Virus record (IMG/VR): IMGVR_UViG_3300035670_000018
Coordinates: 103,364-167,363 of that record
DNA: 64,000 bases
Source: a virus
Direction: 5' to 3' (one strand)
The position numbers were made by a program, and so were the translations under genes. Positions 1 to 57,865 of this stretch are shown piece after piece; position 1 is the stretch's first letter, and each line of letters opens with the position of its first letter. The notes under the pieces are model-generated. The model worked only from the letters and a program-made list of their open reading frames with translations. It had not been told where the DNA came from and made no database searches.

Positions 1-18
1 GCATACATCATTCTTCCT

Positions 19-489
19 ATGCTGAAACAGCTTAAGGCTACCAAGCACGGCAGCCCTTACATTGATAAGGAAGACCTGCCAGAGCATCTTCGTCTTTCTG
101 AAAGAGAAGAAGCTGTTTTCAATCACGGCTATTATGATAAGAGTCTAAATGCATCCGAAGAAGAACTTGAAGCAGCAAGCGAGAAGTTTCATTCACAGTG
201 GGTTTGGGTTCTTGATCATATGATCTGGAGCTTTGAACAGGAACTTGATGAGGACGAAGGTGATCATAACTTCTATGAACCCTATGCTCCTGATGAAGTT
301 ATCAAGCCACGCATGATCAGTGTCGTTAATAAAGATGGCACCACACTTGAAAAAGAATGGCCGAACTGGTCTGAAGATCGTGAGCGTGAGCGCGGCAAGT
401 TCAGCAAAGAAAAGTATGAGGCTTATCACAAGCGCAAGCAGCTTGGCTTTACTCTCTTCGGCAAATACTATCAGAGTTTGTGGGACTGA
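19..489 (+). CDS. Hypothetical phage protein, probably 5'-truncated by the window edge
   Basis: ORF track; frame is open from position 1. Confidence 0.6.
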   Translation: MLKQLKATKHGSPYIDKEDLPEHLRLSEREEAVFNHGYYDKSLNASEEELEAASEKFHSQWVWVLDHMIWSFEQELDEDEGDHNFYEPYAPDEVIKPRMISVVNKDGTTLEKEWPNWSEDRERERGKFSKEKYEAYHKRKQLGFTLFGKYYQSLWD

Positions 490-492
490 CAA

Positions 493-753
493 ATGAAATG
501 TGAAACATGTAAGACCGAATACAAACCGATGCAAGGTCTTGAAGATACAGATCAAGCATCTGGTTGTGCTGCAACTCTGTATCTACATGGTGGTGTGCAT
601 TATATTCTTGCTCATTATGGTTCGCGGTTTGACATGCAACGATATGCTCTTAAACGCGGATCATTCTATGATACAGGCAACATATGTGACAACTGCATAA
701 ATAACCTTATCAATGAAGGCAAAGCAGGTCTCATTGAAGATGGAGTTTGGTAA
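493..753 (+). CDS. Small Cys-rich hypothetical protein
   Basis: ORF with CxxC pairs, tightly packed in the operon. Confidence 0.55.
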   Translation: MKCETCKTEYKPMQGLEDTDQASGCAATLYLHGGVHYILAHYGSRFDMQRYALKRGSFYDTGNICDNCINNLINEGKAGLIEDGVW

Positions 754-772
754 ACAACAGAAGGAATAGAAC

Positions 773-973
773 ATGGCATATCAGACTATTTCCGAAGAAA
801 TCCTAAAGCAAGCAGCAGAGATTATGGGACCAGACAGCAACTTTCACACAGCATTAAAATGGGGAGAAGAGTATAGACAAGCAGGGATGAACCCTGTATA
901 CTATACAGACGATACCGAGAAAATGGTATTCGTAACAACAGAAGAAAAGATGAGCGGCGTTAAGTTTAACTAA
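773..973 (+). CDS. Hypothetical protein
   Basis: AAGGA SD upstream; operon packing. Confidence 0.55.
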   Translation: MAYQTISEEILKQAAEIMGPDSNFHTALKWGEEYRQAGMNPVYYTDDTEKMVFVTTEEKMSGVKFN

Positions 974-1165
974 TTTGGAGATTGTAATGAATATTCTTGA
1001 AACACAGTGGAAGCAGCGGGCCTTTGATAGTAAGTGGGAAAAGCTTGCTAAGGTTATGGACTACGATAACAAGTATGTCTATAAGTCCGAGTCGGGTGGC
1101 AATCTGACTTACATTCCCACAAAGTGGGTCACTGTTGGTGTGTTTGACTATGTGGGGGAACTTGA

Positions 1166-1465
1166 ATGAATATTAAGATTATCAAGCTAATCAATGGTGA
1201 AGACCTGATTGCAAAGGTTCTTCCTTCATCTAGTGAAGTGGTAAAGGTAGAAAATCCTGTTCGCATTGTTGTGATGCCAAACAAGATTGATCCAAAGACA
1301 CCAAATGTTGGTCTTGCTCCTTGGGCAGAGTTCAGTGATGAGAAGGTCTTTCATCTTGACAAATCACATGTATTGTGTATAATGACGCCTGTAAAAGAGT
1401 TTGTCAATCAATACAATACCATCTTTGGTGGACTCGTATTACCTAACTCTGGATTGGTTACTTAA
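1166..1465 (+). CDS. Conserved T4-like small protein (Sm-like fold suspected)
   Basis: IKIIKLINGEDLIA N-terminus resembles small proteins found next to gp43 in T4-like phages. Confidence 0.55.
   Translation: MNIKIIKLINGEDLIAKVLPSSSEVVKVENPVRIVVMPNKIDPKTPNVGLAPWAEFSDEKVFHLDKSHVLCIMTPVKEFVNQYNTIFGGLVLPNSGLVT
1356..1384 (+). promoter_or_regulatory. Sigma70-type promoter upstream of the DNA polymerase gene
   Basis: TTGACA-N17-TATAAT inside the upstream ORF. Confidence 0.7.
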
Positions 1466-1476
1466 CAAGGAATATA

Positions 1477-4029
1477 ATGACCGACTTTTACACTAACGTT
1501 CAAGTGTATGGTTCCAGAATTCTTTATAGAGGTGTAGAAAACGGCAGGAAAGTAAGACGCAAGATCGATTACTTTCCTACTTTTTTTGTGCCTGCTAAGA
1601 GTAAGACTGACTGGACTACCATTCACGGTGAGTATGTATCAGAACTGAAGCCAGGTAACATTCGTGATGCGCGAGACTTCATCAAGCAATACGAAGATGT
1701 TGATGGCTTCAAGATTTATGGCAACAACAAGTATGAGTATGCGTTCATCGGAGATACATTTGCCGATGACATTGAGTGGGATCTATCTCATATCAACATT
1801 ACCAATATTGACATTGAGGTAGGCTCAGAGAATGGTTTTCCTGAGCCTGCAACTGCATCTGAACCTATCACCGCAATCACGTTCAAGAATAAGAATAAGT
1901 TTGTGGTGTTAGGTTGTGGTGCATTTGATAATCGTCGTGAAGATGTTTGGTACATTCAGTGTCGTGATGAAGCCGATTTGCTAAATAAGTTTCTTGATGA
2001 GTGGACATTCGATTATCCAGATATCATCACTGGTTGGAATGTCAAGTTCTTTGATATTCCCTATCTTGTTAATCGGATCACCAAGATCCTTGGTGAAGTA
2101 GATGCAAAACGTCTTTCGCCGTGGCTTAATCTTGATGAGCGCCGTGTAGTCATCATGGGTCGTGAACAGATTGCATTCGTGCCTTCTGGTATCTCGGTGC
2201 TTGACTACATTGAACTCTATAAGAAGTTTGCTCCTGGTGGTCAGTCTCAAGAGTCATATAAGCTTGATGCTATCTGTAATGTAGAACTTGGTGAGCGTAA
2301 GCTTTCATATGAAGAGTATGGTTCGCTCCATACTCTTTACAAGGACAACTATCAGAAGTTCATTGAGTATAACATTCGTGACGTGGAACTGGTTGGTAAG
2401 CTTGAAGATAAGTTGCGATTGATTGAACTTGCGCTCACTCTGGCTTATGATTCCAAGTCTAACTACGATGATGTGTTCACACAGGTGCGTATGTGGGATA
2501 ACATCATATATAATTATCTGAAGAAGAAGAACATGGTCGTTCCTCCGATCATTAGGCATTCTAAGGATGCAGCGTATGTTGGTGCGTTTGTGAAAGATCC
2601 ATTGATTGGTATTCACAAGTGGATTGCAAGCTTTGACTTGAATTCACTGTATCCACATTTGATTATGCAGTACAATATCAGCCCTGATACACTGATTGAA
2701 CCTGCAAACTATGATGGTACTATGAGAGAGTTTATCTCACGAAACAATGTGACGATTGATTCACTCTTGAACCAAGAATGTAAGACTAGCGTCCTTAAGG
2801 TTGCTAATGTGACATTGACACCGAATGGCCAGTTCTTCACGAAAGAGAAGCACGGGTTCTTACCTGAAATCATGGAGACAATGTACAATGATAGGTCTGC
2901 GTACAAGAAGAAAGCTATCGCAGCTAAACAAGAAGCTGAACGCGAAACAGATCCAGGAAGAAAAGTTGAAATTGAAAAAAGAATCGCTAGGTTCAACAAT
3001 CTTCAATTGGCTAAAAAAGTTTCTCTGAACTCGGCCTATGGTGCTTTGGGTAATGAGTTCTTCCGCTTCTTTGATGTAAGACAGGCTTCTGCTATCACAA
3101 CAGCAGGTCAGTTGTCTATTCGCTGGATTGAGAATAAGCTAAATGATTATATGAACAAGCTACTCAAAACGGAGAATGAAGACTATGTTATTGCATCGGA
3201 TACGGATAGCATCTATCTCTCTCTTGATAAACTGGTCAGCAAGACTATTGTTGAGCAGAACCCAGATGCTAGTACAAAGCAAATCATCAAGTTCATGGAT
3301 AAGGTTTGTGAAGATCGCATTCAACCGTTTATTGACAAAGCTTATGCTGAACTTGCTGAGTATATTAATGCCTACGAACAAAAGATGCAAATGAAGCGTG
3401 AGGCTCTTGCTGACAAGGGTATCTGGACAGCAAAGAAGCGTTACATCATGAACGTTTACAATAACGAAGGCGTTGAGTATGCGAAGCCGAAAGTAAAGGT
3501 GATGGGCTTGGAAGTAAAGAAATCTTCCACACCAGCATTCTTTCGAGATAAGATGGAAGAGTGTATTCATATCATGCTCAACTCCACAGAAGACAAGCTG
3601 ATTAGCTATGTTGAATCTGTGCGAGACGAAATGAAGAAAGCCTTGATTTCGGACATTGCATTTCCTCGTGGTGTCAATGGACTTGAGAAGTTTAGTGATG
3701 CTAAGATGATATATGGCAAAGGTTGTCCGATACATGTTAGAGGCGCTCTTGTTTACAATCATATGCTTTCGGCCAAGAAACTGAACAAAGTGTATCCACA
3801 AATCAATGAGGGTGAAAAAATCAAGTTCATCTACATGAAAGAGCCGAATCCTATTCGCAGTAATGTCATTGCCTTTCCAATGTCTCTGCCTAAAGAGTTT
3901 GGTATCGATTCATATGTTGACTATGAAACACAGTTTCTAAAGGCTTTCGTTGAACCAATCAAGATCATAACTGAAAGCATAGGATGGAAAACTGAAAGTG
4001 TATCCAGTTTAGAAGATTTTTTCTTGTAA
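1477..4029 (+). CDS. gp43: Family B DNA polymerase (T4 gp43-like)
   Basis: Exo DIE and GWNxxxFD motifs; DLNSLYP, KxxLNSAYG and SDTDS polymerase motifs; C-terminal SLEDFF clamp-binding peptide. Confidence 0.98.
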   Translation: MTDFYTNVQVYGSRILYRGVENGRKVRRKIDYFPTFFVPAKSKTDWTTIHGEYVSELKPGNIRDARDFIKQYEDVDGFKIYGNNKYEYAFIGDTFADDIEWDLSHINITNIDIEVGSENGFPEPATASEPITAITFKNKNKFVVLGCGAFDNRREDVWYIQCRDEADLLNKFLDEWTFDYPDIITGWNVKFFDIPYLVNRITKILGEVDAKRLSPWLNLDERRVVIMGREQIAFVPSGISVLDYIELYKKFAPGGQSQESYKLDAICNVELGERKLSYEEYGSLHTLYKDNYQKFIEYNIRDVELVGKLEDKLRLIELALTLAYDSKSNYDDVFTQVRMWDNIIYNYLKKKNMVVPPIIRHSKDAAYVGAFVKDPLIGIHKWIASFDLNSLYPHLIMQYNISPDTLIEPANYDGTMREFISRNNVTIDSLLNQECKTSVLKVANVTLTPNGQFFTKEKHGFLPEIMETMYNDRSAYKKKAIAAKQEAERETDPGRKVEIEKRIARFNNLQLAKKVSLNSAYGALGNEFFRFFDVRQASAITTAGQLSIRWIENKLNDYMNKLLKTENEDYVIASDTDSIYLSLDKLVSKTIVEQNPDASTKQIIKFMDKVCEDRIQPFIDKAYAELAEYINAYEQKMQMKREALADKGIWTAKKRYIMNVYNNEGVEYAKPKVKVMGLEVKKSSTPAFFRDKMEECIHIMLNSTEDKLISYVESVRDEMKKALISDIAFPRGVNGLEKFSDAKMIYGKGCPIHVRGALVYNHMLSAKKLNKVYPQINEGEKIKFIYMKEPNPIRSNVIAFPMSLPKEFGIDSYVDYETQFLKAFVEPIKIITESIGWKTESVSSLEDFFL

Positions 4030-4035
4030 ACACTG

Positions 4036-4085
4036 ACTTGACTATCTCAAAATACTAAATAGAAGTGAAGAGGAGATAGTCAAGT
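4036..4085 (+). promoter_or_regulatory. Late promoter (TACTAAATA) inside a 13-bp hairpin that sequesters the endonuclease RBS and start codon
   Basis: ACTTGACTATCTC (4036-4048) pairs with GAGATAGTCAAGT (4073-4085); TACTAAATA at 4053-4061 lies in the loop. Confidence 0.75.
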
Positions 4086-4752
4086 GAAATACAACTTCTA
4101 CAAAATCATCAATAAGGCAAACGATAAGTCATACATAGGTATGACGAAGCGCGACATTGAGACACGATATCAGGAACACATTAGATGTGCCCTAAGCAAT
4201 CACGATCTAAACAACGATTACATCATGCCATTATATAACGCAATAAGAAAGTATGGAATCGACTCGTTTCATATCGTAGAACTCGATTCTACAGAACTTT
4301 CATCTCACAGAGATGCAGAGATATATGAAGGTAAACTGATAACAGAGAATGCATCACTATTACACATGAATGGTTATAATCTTAATCACATGAACGAAAA
4401 TGGCACAAGAACATATGAAGCACACATCAAAACAAAGATCGTAGAAAACAATACTGGTAAAAACAATCCTTTCTTCGGCAAGAAACACAGTGATGAGACG
4501 CGAAAGAAGATGTCAGATAAGGCAAAGAAAAGACTGTCTGATCCTAAAAACAATCCGCGATATGGTTATCAATACACAGAAGAAGATAGAGCAAAACACA
4601 GAGAGTCGAAAAGAAAGTTCGGTAAACCTTTCATGGCCGAAGGCATTCGATATCAGACATTATGTGAAGCATCAATGAGGTATAATGTGACGAAACAGGC
4701 AATACAGTTTAGATTGAAATCTAACACATATGAAGATTGGTATTGGTTATGA
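4084..4752 (+). CDS. Free-standing GIY-YIG homing endonuclease with NUMOD3-type repeats
   Basis: FYKI...SYIGMT motif; NPFFGKKHSDETRKKMS repeat. Confidence 0.9.
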   Translation: MKYNFYKIINKANDKSYIGMTKRDIETRYQEHIRCALSNHDLNNDYIMPLYNAIRKYGIDSFHIVELDSTELSSHRDAEIYEGKLITENASLLHMNGYNLNHMNENGTRTYEAHIKTKIVENNTGKNNPFFGKKHSDETRKKMSDKAKKRLSDPKNNPRYGYQYTEEDRAKHRESKRKFGKPFMAEGIRYQTLCEASMRYNVTKQAIQFRLKSNTYEDWYWL

Positions 4753-5288
4753 GTCTGGAACAGTTCACAAGACTGGCTGGCTCAGGGAATCCTAATCGTG
4801 AGAAGGATGACTTCTACGCGACTCCAGATTGGGCTATCGACGCTCTTCTGGATCGCGAGAAGTTTGAAGGTGAAATCTGGGAACCTGCATGTGGTGATGG
4901 TGCTATCTGTAAAAGGTTACAGCAATATGGATACAATCACATCTACGCAACCGATCTGATTGACAGAGGATATGGTGATGCTCATTTTGATTTCATGAAT
5001 AGCAATCGAAAGACAGACAACATCATTACCAATCCTCCATTTAAGATTGGAACCAAGTTTACACTTCATGCTCTTAATCTAGCCAATGATAAGGTAGTCA
5101 TGTTCAATAAGCTTTCTTTTCTTGAAGGGAAAGAAAGAAGAGATAGACTTTACTCTTTGAATATGCTAGAATGCTGTTATGTTTTTGGTGAACGAGTTGG
5201 ATTTAATGGTGGAGGTGGTATGTTGGCCTTCGCATGGTTCGTGTTCAACAAAAAGTATAATGGTAAATCAAGATTGGAATGGATATGA
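4749..5288 (+). CDS. DNA amino-methyltransferase (N6-adenine/N4-cytosine)
   Basis: DFYATP, EPACGDG SAM-binding motif, NPPF catalytic motif. Confidence 0.85.
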   Translation: MSLEQFTRLAGSGNPNREKDDFYATPDWAIDALLDREKFEGEIWEPACGDGAICKRLQQYGYNHIYATDLIDRGYGDAHFDFMNSNRKTDNIITNPPFKIGTKFTLHALNLANDKVVMFNKLSFLEGKERRDRLYSLNMLECCYVFGERVGFNGGGGMLAFAWFVFNKKYNGKSRLEWI

Positions 5289-5857
5289 GATGTAACTGTG
5301 ACGCATCATGTGGTGAGAATCGATATCACAACGTTGGTGATCGTGAATGTAGATTCCATACGGTAGAAGAATATGAAGCATATTGGGGCATTAAAAAGAC
5401 TATACTACCTGAACCAGAACGAAAGTTTTCAGACAAATATCGGGAAAAAATACAAGAGTTGAAAGACATGACAGATTATAGAGACTTTGATGAAATCATG
5501 GAACAGATTGCAGCGGAACGTAAGCAGCCTTATATTCAATCAATGAAGCGCCCTTGGGGTGAGTGGCATGTGCTTGATGTAGATCGCGGATACAAGGTCA
5601 AGCGTCTTGAGATTCTACCTGATCAGGCCATCTCGCTTCAGTATCACAATCATCGCAGTGAGCATTGGACGATTGTGCAGGGCAAAGGTAAGGTCATTGT
5701 TGATGGCAATATCTTTACCGTTGAAAAGGGAGAATCGTTTCATGTTCCTCGCATGGCTCTTCACAAGATCACGAATACTCACCTAACTGAAACTTTGATT
5801 GCTATTGAAGTGCAGATGGGTGAGATATGCAGCGAAGACGATATCGTTCGTTGCTAA
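5279..5857 (+). CDS. Cupin protein, mannose-6-phosphate isomerase type II C-terminal-like; true start may be internal
   Basis: RPWG...SLQYHNHRSEHW...EVQMG...EDDIVR. Confidence 0.85.
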   Translation: MDMRCNCDASCGENRYHNVGDRECRFHTVEEYEAYWGIKKTILPEPERKFSDKYREKIQELKDMTDYRDFDEIMEQIAAERKQPYIQSMKRPWGEWHVLDVDRGYKVKRLEILPDQAISLQYHNHRSEHWTIVQGKGKVIVDGNIFTVEKGESFHVPRMALHKITNTHLTETLIAIEVQMGEICSEDDIVRC

Positions 5858-5910
5858 ATAAAGCGTCACGGAGATACGTGACATTAACATAGACATAAAG
5901 GAGATACGAT

Positions 5911-6963
5911 ATGTCAAATCTATTCAACTCTCTACTAAAGGAGATCGACAATGAGTATGCGGGAATTGCTGATGAAGGAGTGGAAGCTGGCGATGTTACT
6001 GGCTTTATTGGCACTGGTAGCTACAGTCTCAATGCCCTCCTTTCTGGCAGCATTTACGGAGGTCTTCCTGCCAATAAAGTCACAGCACTCGCTGGAGAAC
6101 CTTCTACAGGAAAGACCTTCTATGCAATCAACATTGTCAGGCAGTTCCTCAGAGACAACGACAACGGATTCGTTTTCTACTTTGAATCCGAATCTGCTAT
6201 ATCTAAACAAATGCTGGCAGATCGTGGAGTTGACACCAAGAGAGTTGCAGTTGTGCCAGTCGCAACTATCCAAGAGTTTAGAACTCAAGCAGTAAAGATC
6301 CTCGACAAGTACATTGCAGACAAGGAAAGCAAAGAGCGTCCTCCAATGCTGTTCGTTCTCGACTCACTTGGCAATCTTTCTACTGACAAAGAAATGGCCG
6401 ACATTGCTGACGGCAAAGACACACGCGACATGACACGCGCACAGCTTGTTCGTGGTGCATTCCGTGTTCTTACATTGAAGCTTGGTAAGGCAAAGGTGCC
6501 TCTCATCGTGACCAATCACGTTTATGATGTAGTTGGATCATATGTGCCGACCAAGAAGATGGGTGGTGGTTCTGGTCTAGAGTATGCTGCATCTACTATT
6601 CTGTTTCTCTCTAAGAAGAAAGACAAGGACAAGGACGGTGGTGTGTCTGGTGCTATCATCACAGCAAATCTAAAGAAGGCACGACTGACGATTGAGAACA
6701 AGAAAGTAGAGACGTTACTTGATTATGCAACCGGTCTTGATCCTTATTATGGACTTCTTGACCTTGCTGAGAAGTTTGGAATCATTAAGAAAGTCTCAAC
6801 AAGATACGAACTACCGGATGGCACTAAAGCTTTTGAATCAGTCATTCTGATGAACCCAGAAAAGTATTTCACAAAGGACATTCTTGACCAGATTGATGAA
6901 GCATGTAAGAATGAGTTTTTGTATGGCAAGTCTAGTGTCACTGATGTGGAGGATGCATCATGA
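5911..6963 (+). CDS. uvsX: RecA-like recombinase UvsX
   Basis: GEPSTGKT Walker A, LDSLG, MGGGSG; T4 gene order. Confidence 0.95.
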
Positions 6964-9094: not shown

Positions 9095-9335
9095 AGGAAA
9101 GCGGCTGGAGAGCGTTCCGGAAGACGGTTGCTACGGATCTATCAACCCCAGAACCCTCGCTCCAGCCGCTTCCTACCTCATTCCAAACGATCCCAATAAA
9201 ATCAATGACTTAGCCACCATATAAATCAATGACTTAGCCTATGCGTCTGGTGCATATCTGCTATGCGGAGATAACCCTTGAAAATCGGGGTTGCCGACCC
9301 CATATCTAGTATGTAACAAGAGAAGAGGTATTCCA
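9095..9335 (+). repeat. Composite element copy 1: hairpin, tandem IHF sites, LysR-like box and promoter
   Basis: 9158-9335 aligns with 57692-57865; AATCAATGACTTA at 9200 and 9224. Confidence 0.85.
9241..9307 (+). promoter_or_regulatory. Repeated promoter copy 1: ATGC-N7-GCAT-N7-ATGC-N10-CTTGAA-N15-CCCCATATCT
   Basis: Seven aligned copies in the window. Confidence 0.8.
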
Positions 9336-9536
9336 TGTGAGTGTTCGCGATGTTCGGTTCTATTCATTATGAGGGCGATGACTTGCTCGGCGTATACTCT
9401 ACCCTTGAAGCGGCCCGCGCTGCTCGGGACACGTATCAGTTGCAAGAACGTCAGTATGAGTATGACGAGTTTCGTATTCGCGCTCTGGATGTAGACGCTG
9501 CGGCTTATGCCGTGCCGTTCTTCACCTCGCTCTGAT

Positions 9537-9601
9537 ATGCGTTCCGCGCATATCAGACATGCGTTTGCTGCTCTTGATAATCTGATCGACCGACACTATC
9601 T
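9537..9601 (+). promoter_or_regulatory. Repeated promoter copy 2
   Basis: ATGC-N7-GCAT-N7-ATGC-N10-CTTGAT-N15-CACTATCT. Confidence 0.75.
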
Positions 9602-10256
9602 TATGAGTATGACAAAGGAGAATAACATGACATATCGTTGGGGTGAATACATTCTTGTCATTACTGAGAATGAAAGTGGTAAGGTCGTCTATACTAAGCG
9701 GTATGAGAATATGTCTGGTACTGCTATGATGGATGAACAGAAGTTCTTTCGTCGGGACTACCCGATGCCCAAGTATCGTATTGAATGGTAAGGAAAATTG
9801 AAATGGAAAAAGTCTACGTCCTCCTTGAGAAGAATCTTGATACGAAAAATGTTCGTATTGAGGGTGTCTATGAATCTCTCAAGAAGCTTGAAGATCAAAT
9901 GTGGTTTCTCATGAACTTCAATGAGGAACAAAAGTATTACATGATTGAGGAGATGGATGTGCAATGATTAGGCACTATGCAAACGAATATCAGATTCAGC
10001 TTCAAGCTGAGGCTCTGATGGACGCTCTGGATCACAAGTATATCAACACCGCAATGACGGAAATGGAATACGACATGCGTGTGGATGCAATCAACAAGTG
10101 GGAAAAAGCGCGACTCAAGGAGTTGAAGCAGTATGCTTAGGTTCCTGCTCGGTATGGTTGTCGGCGCTTCGGCCACAACTGGTTTCGGTTTTCAGATTGT
10201 GATGGGCGCAATCGGTCTCGGCTTCATGGCTTGGGGCTTCTATGCAATGTATATGA

Positions 10257-12527: not shown

Positions 12528-12566
12528 AGAACCCCGAAGCCAAAAGTTTCGGGGTTCTTCGTTTTT
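12528..12566 (+). terminator. Intrinsic terminator of the attenuator
   Basis: AGAACCCCGAAGC-CAAAA-GTTTCGGGGTTCT followed by TCGTTTTT. Confidence 0.85.
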
Positions 12567-12570
12567 ATAG

Positions 12571-12645
12571 TTGCGTCCAGTGCATAGCAGATATGCGAAA
12601 AAAGAATAAGAAAAGACTTGAAATTGGCTGCGACAAGCACTATAT
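12571..12645 (+). promoter_or_regulatory. Repeated promoter copy 3, upstream of the main tRNA array
   Basis: TTGC-N7-GCAT-N7-ATGC-N20-CTTGAA-N15-CACTATAT. Confidence 0.75.
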
Positions 12646-12697
12646 TAGATATGTAAGAGAGAAAAGAGTTTCCCAGCCGCGCGGGACAAGATGCGGT

Positions 12698-12930: not shown

Positions 12931-13007
12931 TCCTCTCAAGCCAACTAGGTGGAGGCAACTGACTGTTAATCAGTGTACGACAGGTTCGAATCCTGTGGGG
13001 GGAGCCA
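12931..13007 (+). tRNA. tRNA-Asn(GTT)
   Basis: Cloverleaf, CCA. Confidence 0.92.
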
Positions 13008-45545: not shown

Positions 45546-45612
45546 ATGCATTCCATGTATGGCTGGTATTCTATTTCCAACGTTGAAATTCCTGGGTTCC
45601 GACCCCATATCT
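45546..45612 (+). promoter_or_regulatory. Repeated promoter copy 4 (degenerate box)
   Basis: ATGC-N7-GTAT-N7-ATTC-N10-GTTGAA-N15-CCCCATATCT. Confidence 0.7.
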
Positions 45613-45680
45613 AGTACATGATGATGAGAAAGATCCCCCTGTTCCGCACCCTCTACCGCTTCTTCATTGGCCCGCTTCCT

Positions 45681-45745
45681 ATGCGTCCCGCGCATAGCTG
45701 ATATGCGTTCGGAAGACTTGAAATTCTGACTTGCCGATCTTATAT
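45681..45745 (+). promoter_or_regulatory. Repeated promoter copy 5
   Basis: ATGC-N7-GCAT-N7-ATGC-N10-CTTGAA-N15-TCTTATAT. Confidence 0.78.
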
Positions 45746-45773
45746 ATTGTATATGACAGACAGAAAGGTTCCC

Positions 45774-46064
45774 ATGTCCTACGTTGTTTTTCAGACTGCC
45801 AACACCCGCTACGCTGGGAAAAAGGCTAAGTATGACGACCCGATCTTTGAGTCGCTTGCTGCGGCCAAGTCTCATATGTCGCGCTTGATCAAGTCTGGGA
45901 AGTTTACCGCTGATCAACTTGCTGTTGCTGAAGCTGACTACTATCACGACCACATTGAAGCGATTGTGCAGCGCACTAATCTCATGAGCGGAAAGCCGTT
46001 CTTTGAGCGTATCAATACGCCGCACTATTGTTCGTCGTCTTCTGAAACTTACTGGAGCATGTAA
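45774..46064 (+). CDS. Hypothetical protein, probably early
   Basis: NLMSG...TPHYCSSSSETYWSM C-terminus; follows repeated promoter. Confidence 0.65.
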   Translation: MSYVVFQTANTRYAGKKAKYDDPIFESLAAAKSHMSRLIKSGKFTADQLAVAEADYYHDHIEAIVQRTNLMSGKPFFERINTPHYCSSSSETYWSM

Positions 46065-46219
46065 TGTCTAGAATGTCCGCGTCTGAAATCCGTGAAATGT
46101 TTGACATGAACCCCAACATGACAGTGGCTCAGCTTGCGCGAATAGCAGGCATCACTGTCGATCAAGTCAAGCGTATTCTGATGCAATCTGTAACCTGCCC
46201 CTTCTAAGGAGAAAAACTA

Positions 46220-56954: not shown

Positions 56955-57019
56955 ATGCGGTGGATGCATACCAGCTATGCGTTTGATAGTCTTGAATATT
57001 CGACTTGCCGACACTATCT
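56955..57019 (+). promoter_or_regulatory. Repeated promoter copy 6
   Basis: ATGC-N7-GCAT-N7-ATGC-N10-CTTGAA-N15-CACTATCT. Confidence 0.78.
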
Positions 57020-57049
57020 TATGTGTATCGCAACAATGGAGACTACCAC

Positions 57050-57685
57050 ATGGCTATCGCTTGGAAAGAGAATCAGCACGGCTTTGAAGGCACCCAGACC
57101 GACTGGTCGGGCTATGTGCTTGAAAAGATTGTAGATCACAGCTATCGGATCATGTCCGATATTTGGGGTACTGCGGACTGGGCTCTTGTCTGGGACGAAA
57201 AGTCTAACGCTCCCAAGCGTTTGCTTGTCAATGTCTATGACATGAATCCCTCGGGCTGGTCGCCGTCTGAAATCGTAGTTGACGCTACGGAAGAGGTCAA
57301 GGCCAAGTATCGGGACTTTCAGGTCAAGCGGTTGTACGAACAGCTTCTTGGTAGCGCGGAGATTGCAGCCCGTCAGATTGAGAAGGGCTGTATCGCAAAG
57401 GTTGTCAAGGGCAAGAACGGCAAGGGTACTGTCGGGAAGGTTGTTGTCATGATGGATGCAACCTACGGTATGGGCTGGCGCTCTTCCGTAGAGAAGAAGC
57501 TGGCGATTGCCACCTCTGACGTTAAGGTCAAGAAGGCCTTACGCTCGGGTAAGGTTGCTGAGGTCTATCAGGATGTCGTGTGGGTTTGGGCTCGTAATGT
57601 CGAGCGGGTAGATATCGCTGAAATCAACCAGCATATGCTCTGGCTTGAAGCGGAGAAGCGGGTGGTACGTCCCATCGCGGCCTGA
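57050..57685 (+). CDS. Hypothetical protein with KOW-like motif, probably early
   Basis: GGAG SD; KVVKGKNGKGTVGKV. Confidence 0.65.
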   Translation: MAIAWKENQHGFEGTQTDWSGYVLEKIVDHSYRIMSDIWGTADWALVWDEKSNAPKRLLVNVYDMNPSGWSPSEIVVDATEEVKAKYRDFQVKRLYEQLLGSAEIAARQIEKGCIAKVVKGKNGKGTVGKVVVMMDATYGMGWRSSVEKKLAIATSDVKVKKALRSGKVAEVYQDVVWVWARNVERVDIAEINQHMLWLEAEKRVVRPIAA

Positions 57686-57865
57686 GCCTCCCGCTCCAGC
57701 CGCTTCCTACCGCGTCCAAAACGAAGTCAACAAAATCAATCACTTAGCCGAACGACAAATCAATGACTTAGCCCATGCTCTGGCCGCATAGCAGGTATGC
57801 AAGGTCCGACGTTGAAATTCCGACGGTCGGACCCCATATCTATAGAGTAACAAGAGAGGTTCCAA
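57647..57865 (+). repeat. Composite element copy 2, including repeated promoter copy 7 (57775-57841)
   Basis: Aligns with 9158-9335; IHF-like sites at 57734 and 57758. Confidence 0.85.

What the first reader, a model, noticed from the sequence alone, without database searches (positions are those of the whole stretch)
9241..9307. Seven-copy promoter combining a LysR-type box with RpoH-like -35/-10 elements
Seen: ATGC-N7-GCAT-N7-ATGC, then 10 nt, then (C/G)TTGAA-N15-(CCCCATATCT, CACTATCT or TCTTATAT), at 9241, 9537, 12571, 45546, 45681, 56955 and 57775. Spacing is fixed except at 12571, where the gap is 20 nt, one extra helical turn. The copies sit at the head of small-gene clusters and the tRNA array. 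Established: alternating tetramers spaced by 7 nt (T-N11-A) are the OxyR/NodD LysR pattern, and CTTGAA...CCCCAT is the sigma32 consensus. From memory, GCAT-N3-TG-N3-T resembles the rhizobial LsrB/VtlR site. Inference: early phage transcription recruits a host LysR activator and possibly the heat-shock sigma factor, unlike T4's sigma70/MotA scheme.
Basis: partly seen in the sequence, partly recalled or inferred. Interest (0 to 1): 0.75.

Follow-up and report, generated by a model that had tools for sequence, protein, structure and literature searches.

The report
Host LysR-box promoters in a phage
Eight promoters of this uncultured T4-like phage copy, base for base and in the same register, the host promoter type that the alphaproteobacterial LysR regulator LsrB/VtlR switches on, and unrelated phages of SAR11 and roseobacter-like hosts carry the same box, so phages of this bacterial class probably borrow that host activator for a special set of early genes.

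Summary
The window holds 7 copies, and the 167-kb genome holds 8, of a ~75-bp module:
- an ATGC-N7-GCAT-N7-ATGC box;
- a 10-nt gap (20 nt at 12571);
- xTTGAA;
- N17;
- a CCATAT- or CTATCT-type -10.

The LysR/LsrB reading is strongly supported. In a Rhizobium genome the same 26-bp box lies between an lsrB-type gene and the AbcR1 sRNA, with the same gaps to the -35, the -10 and the RNA start. A weight matrix built only from sites downstream of bacterial lsrB genes ranks seven modules highest in the phage genome; 12571 comes about fifteenth. The phage encodes no LysR domain.

The RpoH reading is not supported. Published work assigns the matching host promoter (PabcR1) to sigma-70 and finds it independent of RpoH. 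Sequence alone cannot exclude RpoH.

The phage also has at least 24 canonical TTGACA-N17-TATAAT promoters, so the modules form a second promoter class, not the whole early scheme.

The box recurs in at least 32 groups of viral contigs and in the cultured Pelagibacter phage HTVC031P. First-stage notes of this scan flag similar operators in other phage genomes. No binding or transcription experiment exists.

The parts
9241..9307 (+). Module 1: box 9241-9266, -35 CTTGAA 9277-9282, -10 CCATAT 9300-9305, predicted start about 9312. Drives a 61-aa ORF (9350-9535).
9537..9603 (+). Module 2: box 9537-9562, -35 CTTGAT 9573-9578, -10 CTATCT 9596-9601. Its first dyad is extended to a 10-bp hairpin that includes the stop codon of the upstream ORF. 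Heads a run of small ORFs up to 12000.
12571..12647 (+). Module 3: box 12571-12596 (1 mismatch), 20-nt A-rich gap, -35 CTTGAA 12617-12622, -10 CTATAT 12640-12645. It follows an intrinsic terminator (12528-12558) and heads the tRNA block that starts at 12931.
45546..45612 (+). Module 4: degenerate box 45546-45571, -35 GTTGAA 45582-45587, -10 CCATAT 45605-45610. It carries a 12-bp hairpin with two G.U pairs and drives a conserved 27-aa ORF (45618-45701).
45681..45747 (+). Module 5: box 45681-45706 (overlaps the end of the 27-aa ORF), -35 CTTGAA 45717-45722, -10 TTATAT 45740-45745. Heads a cluster of small genes that includes a 47-aa HTH-like ORF and a PNK-phosphatase gene.
56955..57021 (+). Module 6: box 56955-56980, -35 CTTGAA 56991-56996, -10 CTATCT 57014-57019. 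An 11-bp (extendable) hairpin lies directly after the upstream stop codon. Drives a 211-aa ORF (57050-57685).
57775..57841 (+). Module 7: box 57775-57800, -35 GTTGAA 57811-57816, -10 CCATAT 57834-57839. Heads a cluster of small genes.
9200..9239 (+). Two copies, 24 bp apart, of a 16-bp repeat that matches the IHF consensus WATCAANNNNTTR, directly upstream of module 1.
   Evidence: 4 matches in the window against 0.05 expected
57734..57773 (+). The same tandem IHF-like repeat directly upstream of module 7. A third pair precedes the copy at genome position 75553.

Best explanation
Each module is a promoter for host RNA polymerase that is activated by the host's LsrB/VtlR-type LysR regulator. Inferred: a tetramer sits on three strong half-sites, and a weak fourth that abuts the -35, spaced one helical turn apart at about -70, -59, -48 and -37. 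This is the arrangement of the host promoter PabcR1. From there it would help RNA polymerase, most probably with the housekeeping sigma factor, to start about 46 nt after the box. The phage would then use the modules as a second, activator-boosted class of early promoters for small takeover-type genes and for its tRNA block. This class works beside its ordinary TTGACA/TATAAT early promoters and its TATAAATA late promoters. Shown: the sequence and register are the same as in host LsrB sites, and the box is conserved in related phages. Inferred: that the regulator binds, that it activates, and which sigma factor is used.
For: 1) Same site in a host. In Rhizobium sp. 2YAF20 (L127) the order is: a LysR gene (Pfam HTH_1 and LysR_substrate), the 26-bp box, N10, GTTGCC, N17, CCATAT, then AbcR1 (Rfam ar15, 122.9 bits), a second ar15 and an ArsR gene. 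This is the lsrB-abcR1-abcR2 locus of PMC8844928. The sRNA starts 47 nt after the box; the phage start is predicted 46 nt after it.
2) Published work places the LsrB motif GCAT-N3-TG-N3-T at -61 to -49 in PabcR1. Removing that motif cut promoter activity more than 22-fold, activity was nearly basal in the lsrB mutant, and LsrB bound the promoter in EMSA. In the phage the same motif falls at -60 to -48.
3) Fourteen box-bearing bacterial loci have a full-length LsrB orthologue (40-62% identity) that ends 20-90 bp upstream of the box on the same strand. In an unbiased sample of 40 regions downstream of lsrB, 15 carry the box with at most 2 mismatches, against 1.6% of shuffles.
4) A matrix built from 15 bacterial sites, chosen only for a perfect first dyad, scores seven modules at 16-24 bits, the highest-scoring sites in 2 x 167 kb (background mean -34, sd 9.6); only their own reverse-strand echoes score alongside them. 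The 12571 copy ranks about fifteenth at 9.2 bits.
5) Bacterial hits to the exact box are mostly Alphaproteobacteria. The phage carries an alpha-type permuted tmRNA. LsrB orthologues were found in 70 of 121 genomes sampled across the class.
6) The phage has no LysR HTH domain. No phage protein is shared widely among unrelated box-bearing contigs.
7) All 24 distinct upstream sequences, from the 35 of 42 orthologous loci of the 211-aa gene that were examined, keep the module, while the N7 spacers vary.
8) The gap is 10 or 20 nt, also in relative L112, which keeps the box on the same face of the helix.
Against: There is no experiment on any phage copy: no mapped start site and no binding data. The host is unknown, so it is not shown that it has an LsrB orthologue. 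An alpha-type tmRNA is only a hint, because phage Melnitz carries one although its host is OM43 (PMC9004378). ATGC-N7-GCAT dyads are also used by unrelated LysR regulators, such as NtcB and the 26-28%-identical regulators next to boxes in other phyla, so another LysR protein could be the partner. The -35 is near consensus, so the promoters may need the activator less than PabcR1 does. In four of the eight modules the box is embedded in a strong hairpin with covariation, which is a constraint that protein binding does not explain. The cultured rhizobiophages phiM12, phiM9 and P10VF lack the box.
Confidence: 0.65

Rival explanations
1. The box has the same LysR role, but the core promoter is read by the heat-shock sigma factor RpoH. 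The module class would then be tied to stress or to RpoH levels.
For: CTTGAA-N16-CCCATAT is as close to the S. meliloti RpoH1 consensus CTTGAA-N16-CCTATAT as to the sigma-70 consensus. The phage uses a clearly different motif, TTGACA-N17-TATAAT, at 24 or more other promoters, so the two classes could use different sigma factors. Four modules carry CCCCAT, as in the E. coli sigma-32 -10 element (my own knowledge).
Against: Host promoters of the same register (PabcR1 type) have the same CCATAT-type -10. PabcR1 stays active in rpoH insertion mutants and is assigned to sigma-70 (PMC8844928). I know of no LysR activator shown to work with RpoH holoenzyme (own knowledge).
Confidence: 0.2
2. A phage-encoded DNA-binding protein recognises the box, by analogy with T4 MotA. 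The modules would then be true middle promoters, and the likeness to host LsrB sites would be mimicry or competition.
For: Marine T4-like phages lack identifiable middle promoters (PMC9004378), and this class could fill that gap. Small HTH-like ORFs exist, for example the 47-aa ORF at 46064-46207 with weak HTH hits (E about 1e-3).
Against: The same box occurs in unrelated podovirus-like and roseophage-like contigs that share no candidate protein with this phage within the DNA held. The box and its register are those of a proven host site. The -35 is kept, unlike in sigma appropriation by MotA/AsiA. No LysR domain is present in the phage.
Confidence: 0.1
3. The palindromes act mainly as RNA hairpins (terminators or 3'-end stabilisers of the upstream transcription unit), and their likeness to LysR sites is secondary.
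For: Four of the eight modules fold into hairpins of -18.6 to -25.9 kcal/mol (z -4.4 to -6.5). In the orthologue alignment A1, 96.6% of cells pair, 3 pairs change on both sides, and all 11 wobble cells are U.G in the sense strand. The hairpins start at or just after upstream stop codons.
Against: The other four modules have no such hairpin yet keep the box and its spacing. The third half-site and the fixed 10/20-nt distance to the -35 have no role in a hairpin. Host sites downstream of lsrB are the same sequence. No T-run follows the stem directly.
Confidence: 0.04
4. The host LysR protein binds the box but represses, for example as a brake or a host-state sensor, rather than activating.
For: LysR proteins can repress, and the near-consensus -35 suggests that the core promoter could fire unaided.
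Against: Half-sites centred at -64 and -53, upstream of the -35, are in the activator position, not the occluding position. At the matching host promoter LsrB activates.
Confidence: 0.05

Closest known systems
PabcR1, the LsrB/VtlR-dependent promoter of the AbcR1 sRNA in Sinorhizobium, Agrobacterium and Brucella (PMC8844928, PMC7486931)
   Same: The box sequence is the same, including GCAT-N3-TG-N3-T at about -60 to -48, with tandem T-N11-A dyads. The 10-nt gap to the -35, the N17 spacer, the CCATAT-type -10 and the distance to the RNA start also match.
   Different: The module lies in a lytic phage, in 8 copies, and drives protein-coding gene clusters and tRNAs rather than an sRNA beside lsrB. 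Its -35 is closer to consensus. Some copies are extended into hairpins or preceded by tandem IHF-like sites.
NtcB box of the Anabaena nirA promoter (bioRxiv 10.1101/2022.10.10.511513)
   Same: The half-sites and spacing are identical, ATGC-N7-GCAT-N7-ATGC-N7-GCAT, and a LysR tetramer is seen bound there by cryo-EM.
   Different: The NtcB box lies at -100 to -64 and works together with NtcA through a DNA loop. Here the box lies at -71 to -46 and abuts the -35. NtcB is cyanobacterial.
T4 middle promoters (MotA box with AsiA)
   Same: Both form a second, activator-dependent promoter class of a T4-type phage beside consensus sigma-70 early promoters and TATAAATA late promoters.
   Different: The MotA box replaces the -35 and is read by a phage protein after sigma appropriation (own knowledge). 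Here the -35 is kept, the box lies upstream, and the likely reader is a host protein.
OxyR-type four-half-site operators (ATAG-N7-CTAT, twice)
   Same: Four half-sites lie in successive major grooves 11 bp apart, read by a LysR tetramer that activates from upstream of the -35 (own knowledge).
   Different: The half-site sequence differs, and no redox dependence has been tested here.

Membership tests
LysR-type (LTTR) activated promoter of the LsrB/VtlR regulon kind | Interrupted dyad T-N11-A that contains the LsrB/VtlR motif GCAT-N3-TG-N3-T | tested here: met
   All eight copies have ATGC-N7-GCAT. The central GCATA-N-CWG-N-TATGC contains the motif on one strand or the other.
LysR-type (LTTR) activated promoter of the LsrB/VtlR regulon kind | A recognition site centred near -65 and a weaker site reaching the -35, in the same register as PabcR1 | tested here: met
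   The dyad centres fall at -64 and -53 relative to the predicted start, and the motif at -60 to -48, against the published -61 to -49. The gaps are identical to those of L127 PabcR1. The start site is predicted, not mapped.
LysR-type (LTTR) activated promoter of the LsrB/VtlR regulon kind | Sequence indistinguishable from bona fide host sites beside lsrB | tested here: met
   A matrix built from 15 sites downstream of bacterial lsrB genes ranks seven modules as the highest-scoring sites in the phage genome, alongside their own reverse-strand echoes; the eighth (12571) ranks about fifteenth.
LysR-type (LTTR) activated promoter of the LsrB/VtlR regulon kind | The cognate regulator is present in the cell where the promoter works | tested here: inconclusive
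   The host is unknown. The phage has no LysR HTH domain. LsrB orthologues were found in 70 of 121 sampled alphaproteobacterial genomes, including a SAR11 genome. The alpha-type tmRNA is only a hint to the host.
LysR-type (LTTR) activated promoter of the LsrB/VtlR regulon kind | Protein binding, and regulator-dependent transcription | not testable with these tools
   This needs EMSA or footprinting and reporter assays.
RpoH (sigma-32 type) promoter | -35 CTTGAA and -10 CCTATAT at N16, distinguishable from the sigma-70 consensus | tested here: inconclusive
   The modules fit the RpoH1 consensus and the alphaproteobacterial sigma-70 consensus about equally well. Host promoters of the same register are reported to be independent of RpoH.
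T4 middle promoter | A MotA box centred at -30 that replaces the -35; phage motA and asiA genes | tested here: not met
   The -35 is conserved and the box lies at -71 to -46. motA and asiA themselves were not searched for.

The most novel reading that the evidence does not exclude
Phages of Alphaproteobacteria, from T4-like myoviruses to T7-like pelagiphages of SAR11 and roseophage-like viruses, have repeatedly placed the operator of one conserved, redox-sensing host LysR regulator (LsrB/VtlR) in front of early genes. This one host protein would then gate early phage transcription across the class. In marine T4-like phages it would supply the 'missing' middle or boosted-early promoter class.
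Probability: 0.45. Interest if true: 0.8.

Novelty: new variant of a known kind. Interest (0 to 1): 0.68.

Why it matters
Lytic phages are known to use host factors such as IHF. I found no report of a phage early-promoter class built on a host LysR-type activator, and full-text searches for LsrB or VtlR together with phage promoters found none.

If the reading is right, it has three consequences:
- It identifies a host protein on which part of the early programme of abundant marine phages depends, including relatives of cultured SAR11 phages.
- It offers a candidate for the unidentified middle-type promoters of marine T4-like phages.
- It gives a sequence signature that points to an alphaproteobacterial host for uncultured viral contigs.

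It also extends the known LsrB/VtlR regulon motif to the whole class, for example to DUF6280 genes in Rhodobacteraceae.

Tried and rejected
- Near-identity search of the region against cultured phages found nothing. The closest cultured relatives by DNA polymerase and helicase are cyanophages and Melnitz, at 52-61% identity, so there is no host assignment.
- ARAGORN in the script box missed the tmRNA. Rfam found it.
- Pelagibacter phages Eistla and HTVC019P have no box, although L011 is 89% identical to Eistla. The early end of the HTVC031P record (1-6000) also has none. The box in HTVC031P lies at the other end of the linear record.
- The rhizobiophages phiM12, phiM9 and P10VF have no box with at most 1 mismatch. 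A direct test with those S. meliloti phages is therefore not available.
- A sigma-54 reading of TGG...TGC within the box was rejected: the spacing is 9, not 10, and GG is present in only a few copies.
- Searches for sigma-70 regions 2 and 4 in the phage gave only sub-threshold hits, probably the late sigma gp55 and a small HTH protein.
- The Rfam SorX hit downstream of a Rhodobacteraceae box scored barely above threshold and was not pursued.
- The RpoH paper by Barnett et al. 2012 is not held in the library.

Full report
WHAT IS THERE

The window is the last 64 kb of a single 167,363-bp virus record with 40% G+C. The record is a T4-type myovirus. Its family-B DNA polymerase, UvsX-like recombinase and gp41-like helicase are closest to those of cyanomyoviruses and the Melnitz phages, at 50-61% identity. 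It carries 27 tRNA genes.

The pattern ATGC-N7-GCAT-N7-ATGC gives 7 matches with at most 1 mismatch where 0.45 are expected. Six are sites on the + strand; the seventh is a reverse-strand echo of the 12571 site. A degenerate copy lies at 45546, and an eighth copy lies outside the window at genome position 75553.

Every copy continues with:
- a 10-nt gap (20 nt at 12571);
- xTTGAA;
- 17 nt;
- a CCATAT-, CTATCT-, CTATAT- or TTATAT-type -10;
- a conserved leader of about 25 nt with a Shine-Dalgarno site.

The finer box consensus is ATGCR-N5-YGCATA-N-CWG-N-TATGC. This amounts to three half-sites 11 bp apart, plus a weak fourth that abuts the -35. With a start site placed 7 nt after the -10, the dyad centres fall at -64 and -53.

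A matrix of the promoter part alone finds no copy without a box. The modules head clusters of small genes, mostly of unknown function, a peptidase gene, a PNK-phosphatase gene and the main tRNA block.

THE BOX IS A HOST LsrB/VtlR-TYPE SITE

Literature:
- The NtcB box of Anabaena has the same half-sites and spacing, and a LysR tetramer is seen bound to it.
- The VtlR/LsrB motif is GCAT-N3-TG-N3-T.
- In S. meliloti PabcR1 that motif lies at -61 to -49, upstream of a sigma-70 promoter, with tandem T-N11-A dyads. The promoter needs LsrB and stays active in rpoH mutants.
- In the phage the motif falls at -60 to -48.

Bacterial genomes:
The hits are mostly Alphaproteobacteria: Brucella/Ochrobactrum, Rhizobiaceae, Devosia, other Hyphomicrobiales, Rhodobacteraceae and Pelagibacteraceae.
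- In Rhizobium sp. 2YAF20 the order is: a LysR gene, the box, N10, GTTGCC, N17, CCATAT, AbcR1 (Rfam ar15, 122.9 bits), a second ar15 and an ArsR gene. The sRNA starts 47 nt after the box. This is the published lsrB-abcR1-abcR2 locus, and its register is that of the phage modules.
- Fourteen of the loci have a full-length LsrB orthologue (40-62% identity) that ends 20-90 bp upstream of the box.
- LsrB orthologues were found in 70 of 121 genomes drawn evenly from the class, including a 0.9-Mb SAR11 genome.
- I fetched 40 regions downstream of lsrB without regard to the box. Fifteen carry it with at most 2 mismatches, against 1.6% of shuffles.
- A matrix built from 15 of these bacterial sites was run over both strands of the phage genome. 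Seven modules are the highest-scoring sites, at 16-24 bits against a background of -34 +/- 9.6; only their own reverse-strand echoes score alongside them. The 12571 copy ranks about fifteenth, at 9.2 bits.
- Host promoters from Hyphomicrobiales share 41-50% gapless identity with the promoter half of the modules, because the -35 and -10 lie in the same columns.

The phage itself has no LysR HTH domain.

CONSERVATION AND SPREAD IN PHAGES

I collected orthologues of the 211-aa gene downstream of module 6 by protein similarity. There are 42 loci at 61-97% identity. I examined the upstream regions of 35 of them, which gave 24 distinct sequences. All keep the box, the gap, the -35 and the -10, while the N7 spacers vary. 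A 20-nt gap recurs in a relative, L112, so the helical face is preserved.

These fall into 32 nucleotide-similarity clusters:
- 44 loci are relatives of this phage.
- 15 are Pelagivirus-like. L011 is 89% identical over 96% of its length to Pelagibacter phage Eistla.
- 12 are roseophage-like.

The cultured Pelagibacter phage HTVC031P has a perfect four-half-site box. It lies in the non-coding stretch between its last late gene and its early genes. No protein of this phage is shared widely with the unrelated box-bearing contigs. This argues for a host reader rather than a common phage-encoded one.

WHICH SIGMA FACTOR

The modules fit the S. meliloti RpoH1 consensus and the alphaproteobacterial sigma-70 consensus about equally well. 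The matching host promoter is sigma-70 type and independent of RpoH. I therefore favour RpoD, at roughly 2:1, but sequence cannot decide.

The phage also has 24 matches on the + strand (3 on the - strand, about 1 expected) to TTGACA-N16-18-TATAAT with at most 1 mismatch. It has 13 (+) against 2 (-) copies of TATAAATA. There are thus three promoter classes, and the modules are the smallest. Marine T4-like phages are reported to lack identifiable middle promoters, and the module class is a candidate for that role.

AN EXTRA LAYER: HAIRPINS

In four modules (genome position 75553, and 9537, 45546 and 56955) the first dyad is extended into a hairpin of -18.6 to -25.9 kcal/mol. In the orthologue alignment of module 6:
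- 96.6% of cells pair;
- three pairs show changes on both sides;
- all wobble cells are U.G in the sense strand.

These hairpins begin at or just after the upstream stop codon. They probably also end or stabilise the upstream transcript. The other four modules lack them, so the hairpin is an added feature and not the core function.

LIMITS

Nothing here is experimental. The host is unknown, and the alpha-type tmRNA is only a hint, because Melnitz carries one although its host is OM43. Other LysR proteins use the same dyad. Both collection scans were capped, so the counts are lower bounds.

First-stage notes of this scan flag the same kind of operator in other phage genomes and LysR boxes before DUF1127 genes. 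I did not check those notes.

Noticed in passing
window 9200-9239 and 57734-57773; genome about 75500-75545: A tandem 16-bp repeat that matches the IHF consensus WATCAANNNNTTR, with copies 24-27 bp apart, lies directly upstream of 3 of the 8 modules. It is conserved in many IMG/VR relatives.
   Followed up: partly
window 45618-45701: A conserved 27-aa ORF (core ..LYRFFIGP..) is driven by module 4, and its 3' end overlaps the box of module 5. Relatives differ at synonymous positions, which suggests a real small protein or leader peptide. It has no Pfam hit.
   Followed up: partly
whole genome, e.g. window 1356, 13524, 38981, 46648, 52254, 53398, 58500, 62478: There are 24 + strand matches (3 on the - strand) to TTGACA-N16-18-TATAAT with at most 1 mismatch. 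This is a large class of E. coli-like consensus promoters in a phage whose host is probably alphaproteobacterial.
   Followed up: partly
window 46064-46207: A 47-aa ORF just downstream of module 5 has weak helix-turn-helix hits (sigma-70 region 4 at E 0.035; several HTH families at E about 1e-3). It may be a small early DNA-binding protein.
   Followed up: no
L125, L140, L157, L185, L191, L194, L208, L213, L217, L223, L229 (Rhodobacteraceae): In Rhodobacteraceae the same box precedes a highly conserved gene of about 105 aa belonging to family DUF6280 (E 1e-45). This gene may be an unrecognised member of the LsrB-type regulon.
   Followed up: partly
genome 2409-2817 (L240 409-818): The phage encodes a permuted two-piece tmRNA of the alphaproteobacterial type (RF04321 at 100 bits, RF01849 at 56 bits).
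   Followed up: partly
L131, L148, L193, L235 (Pelagibacteraceae): SAR11 genomes carry the box upstream of a conserved non-coding stretch. SAR11 has very few regulators, yet one sampled genome keeps an LsrB orthologue at 46% identity.
   Followed up: no
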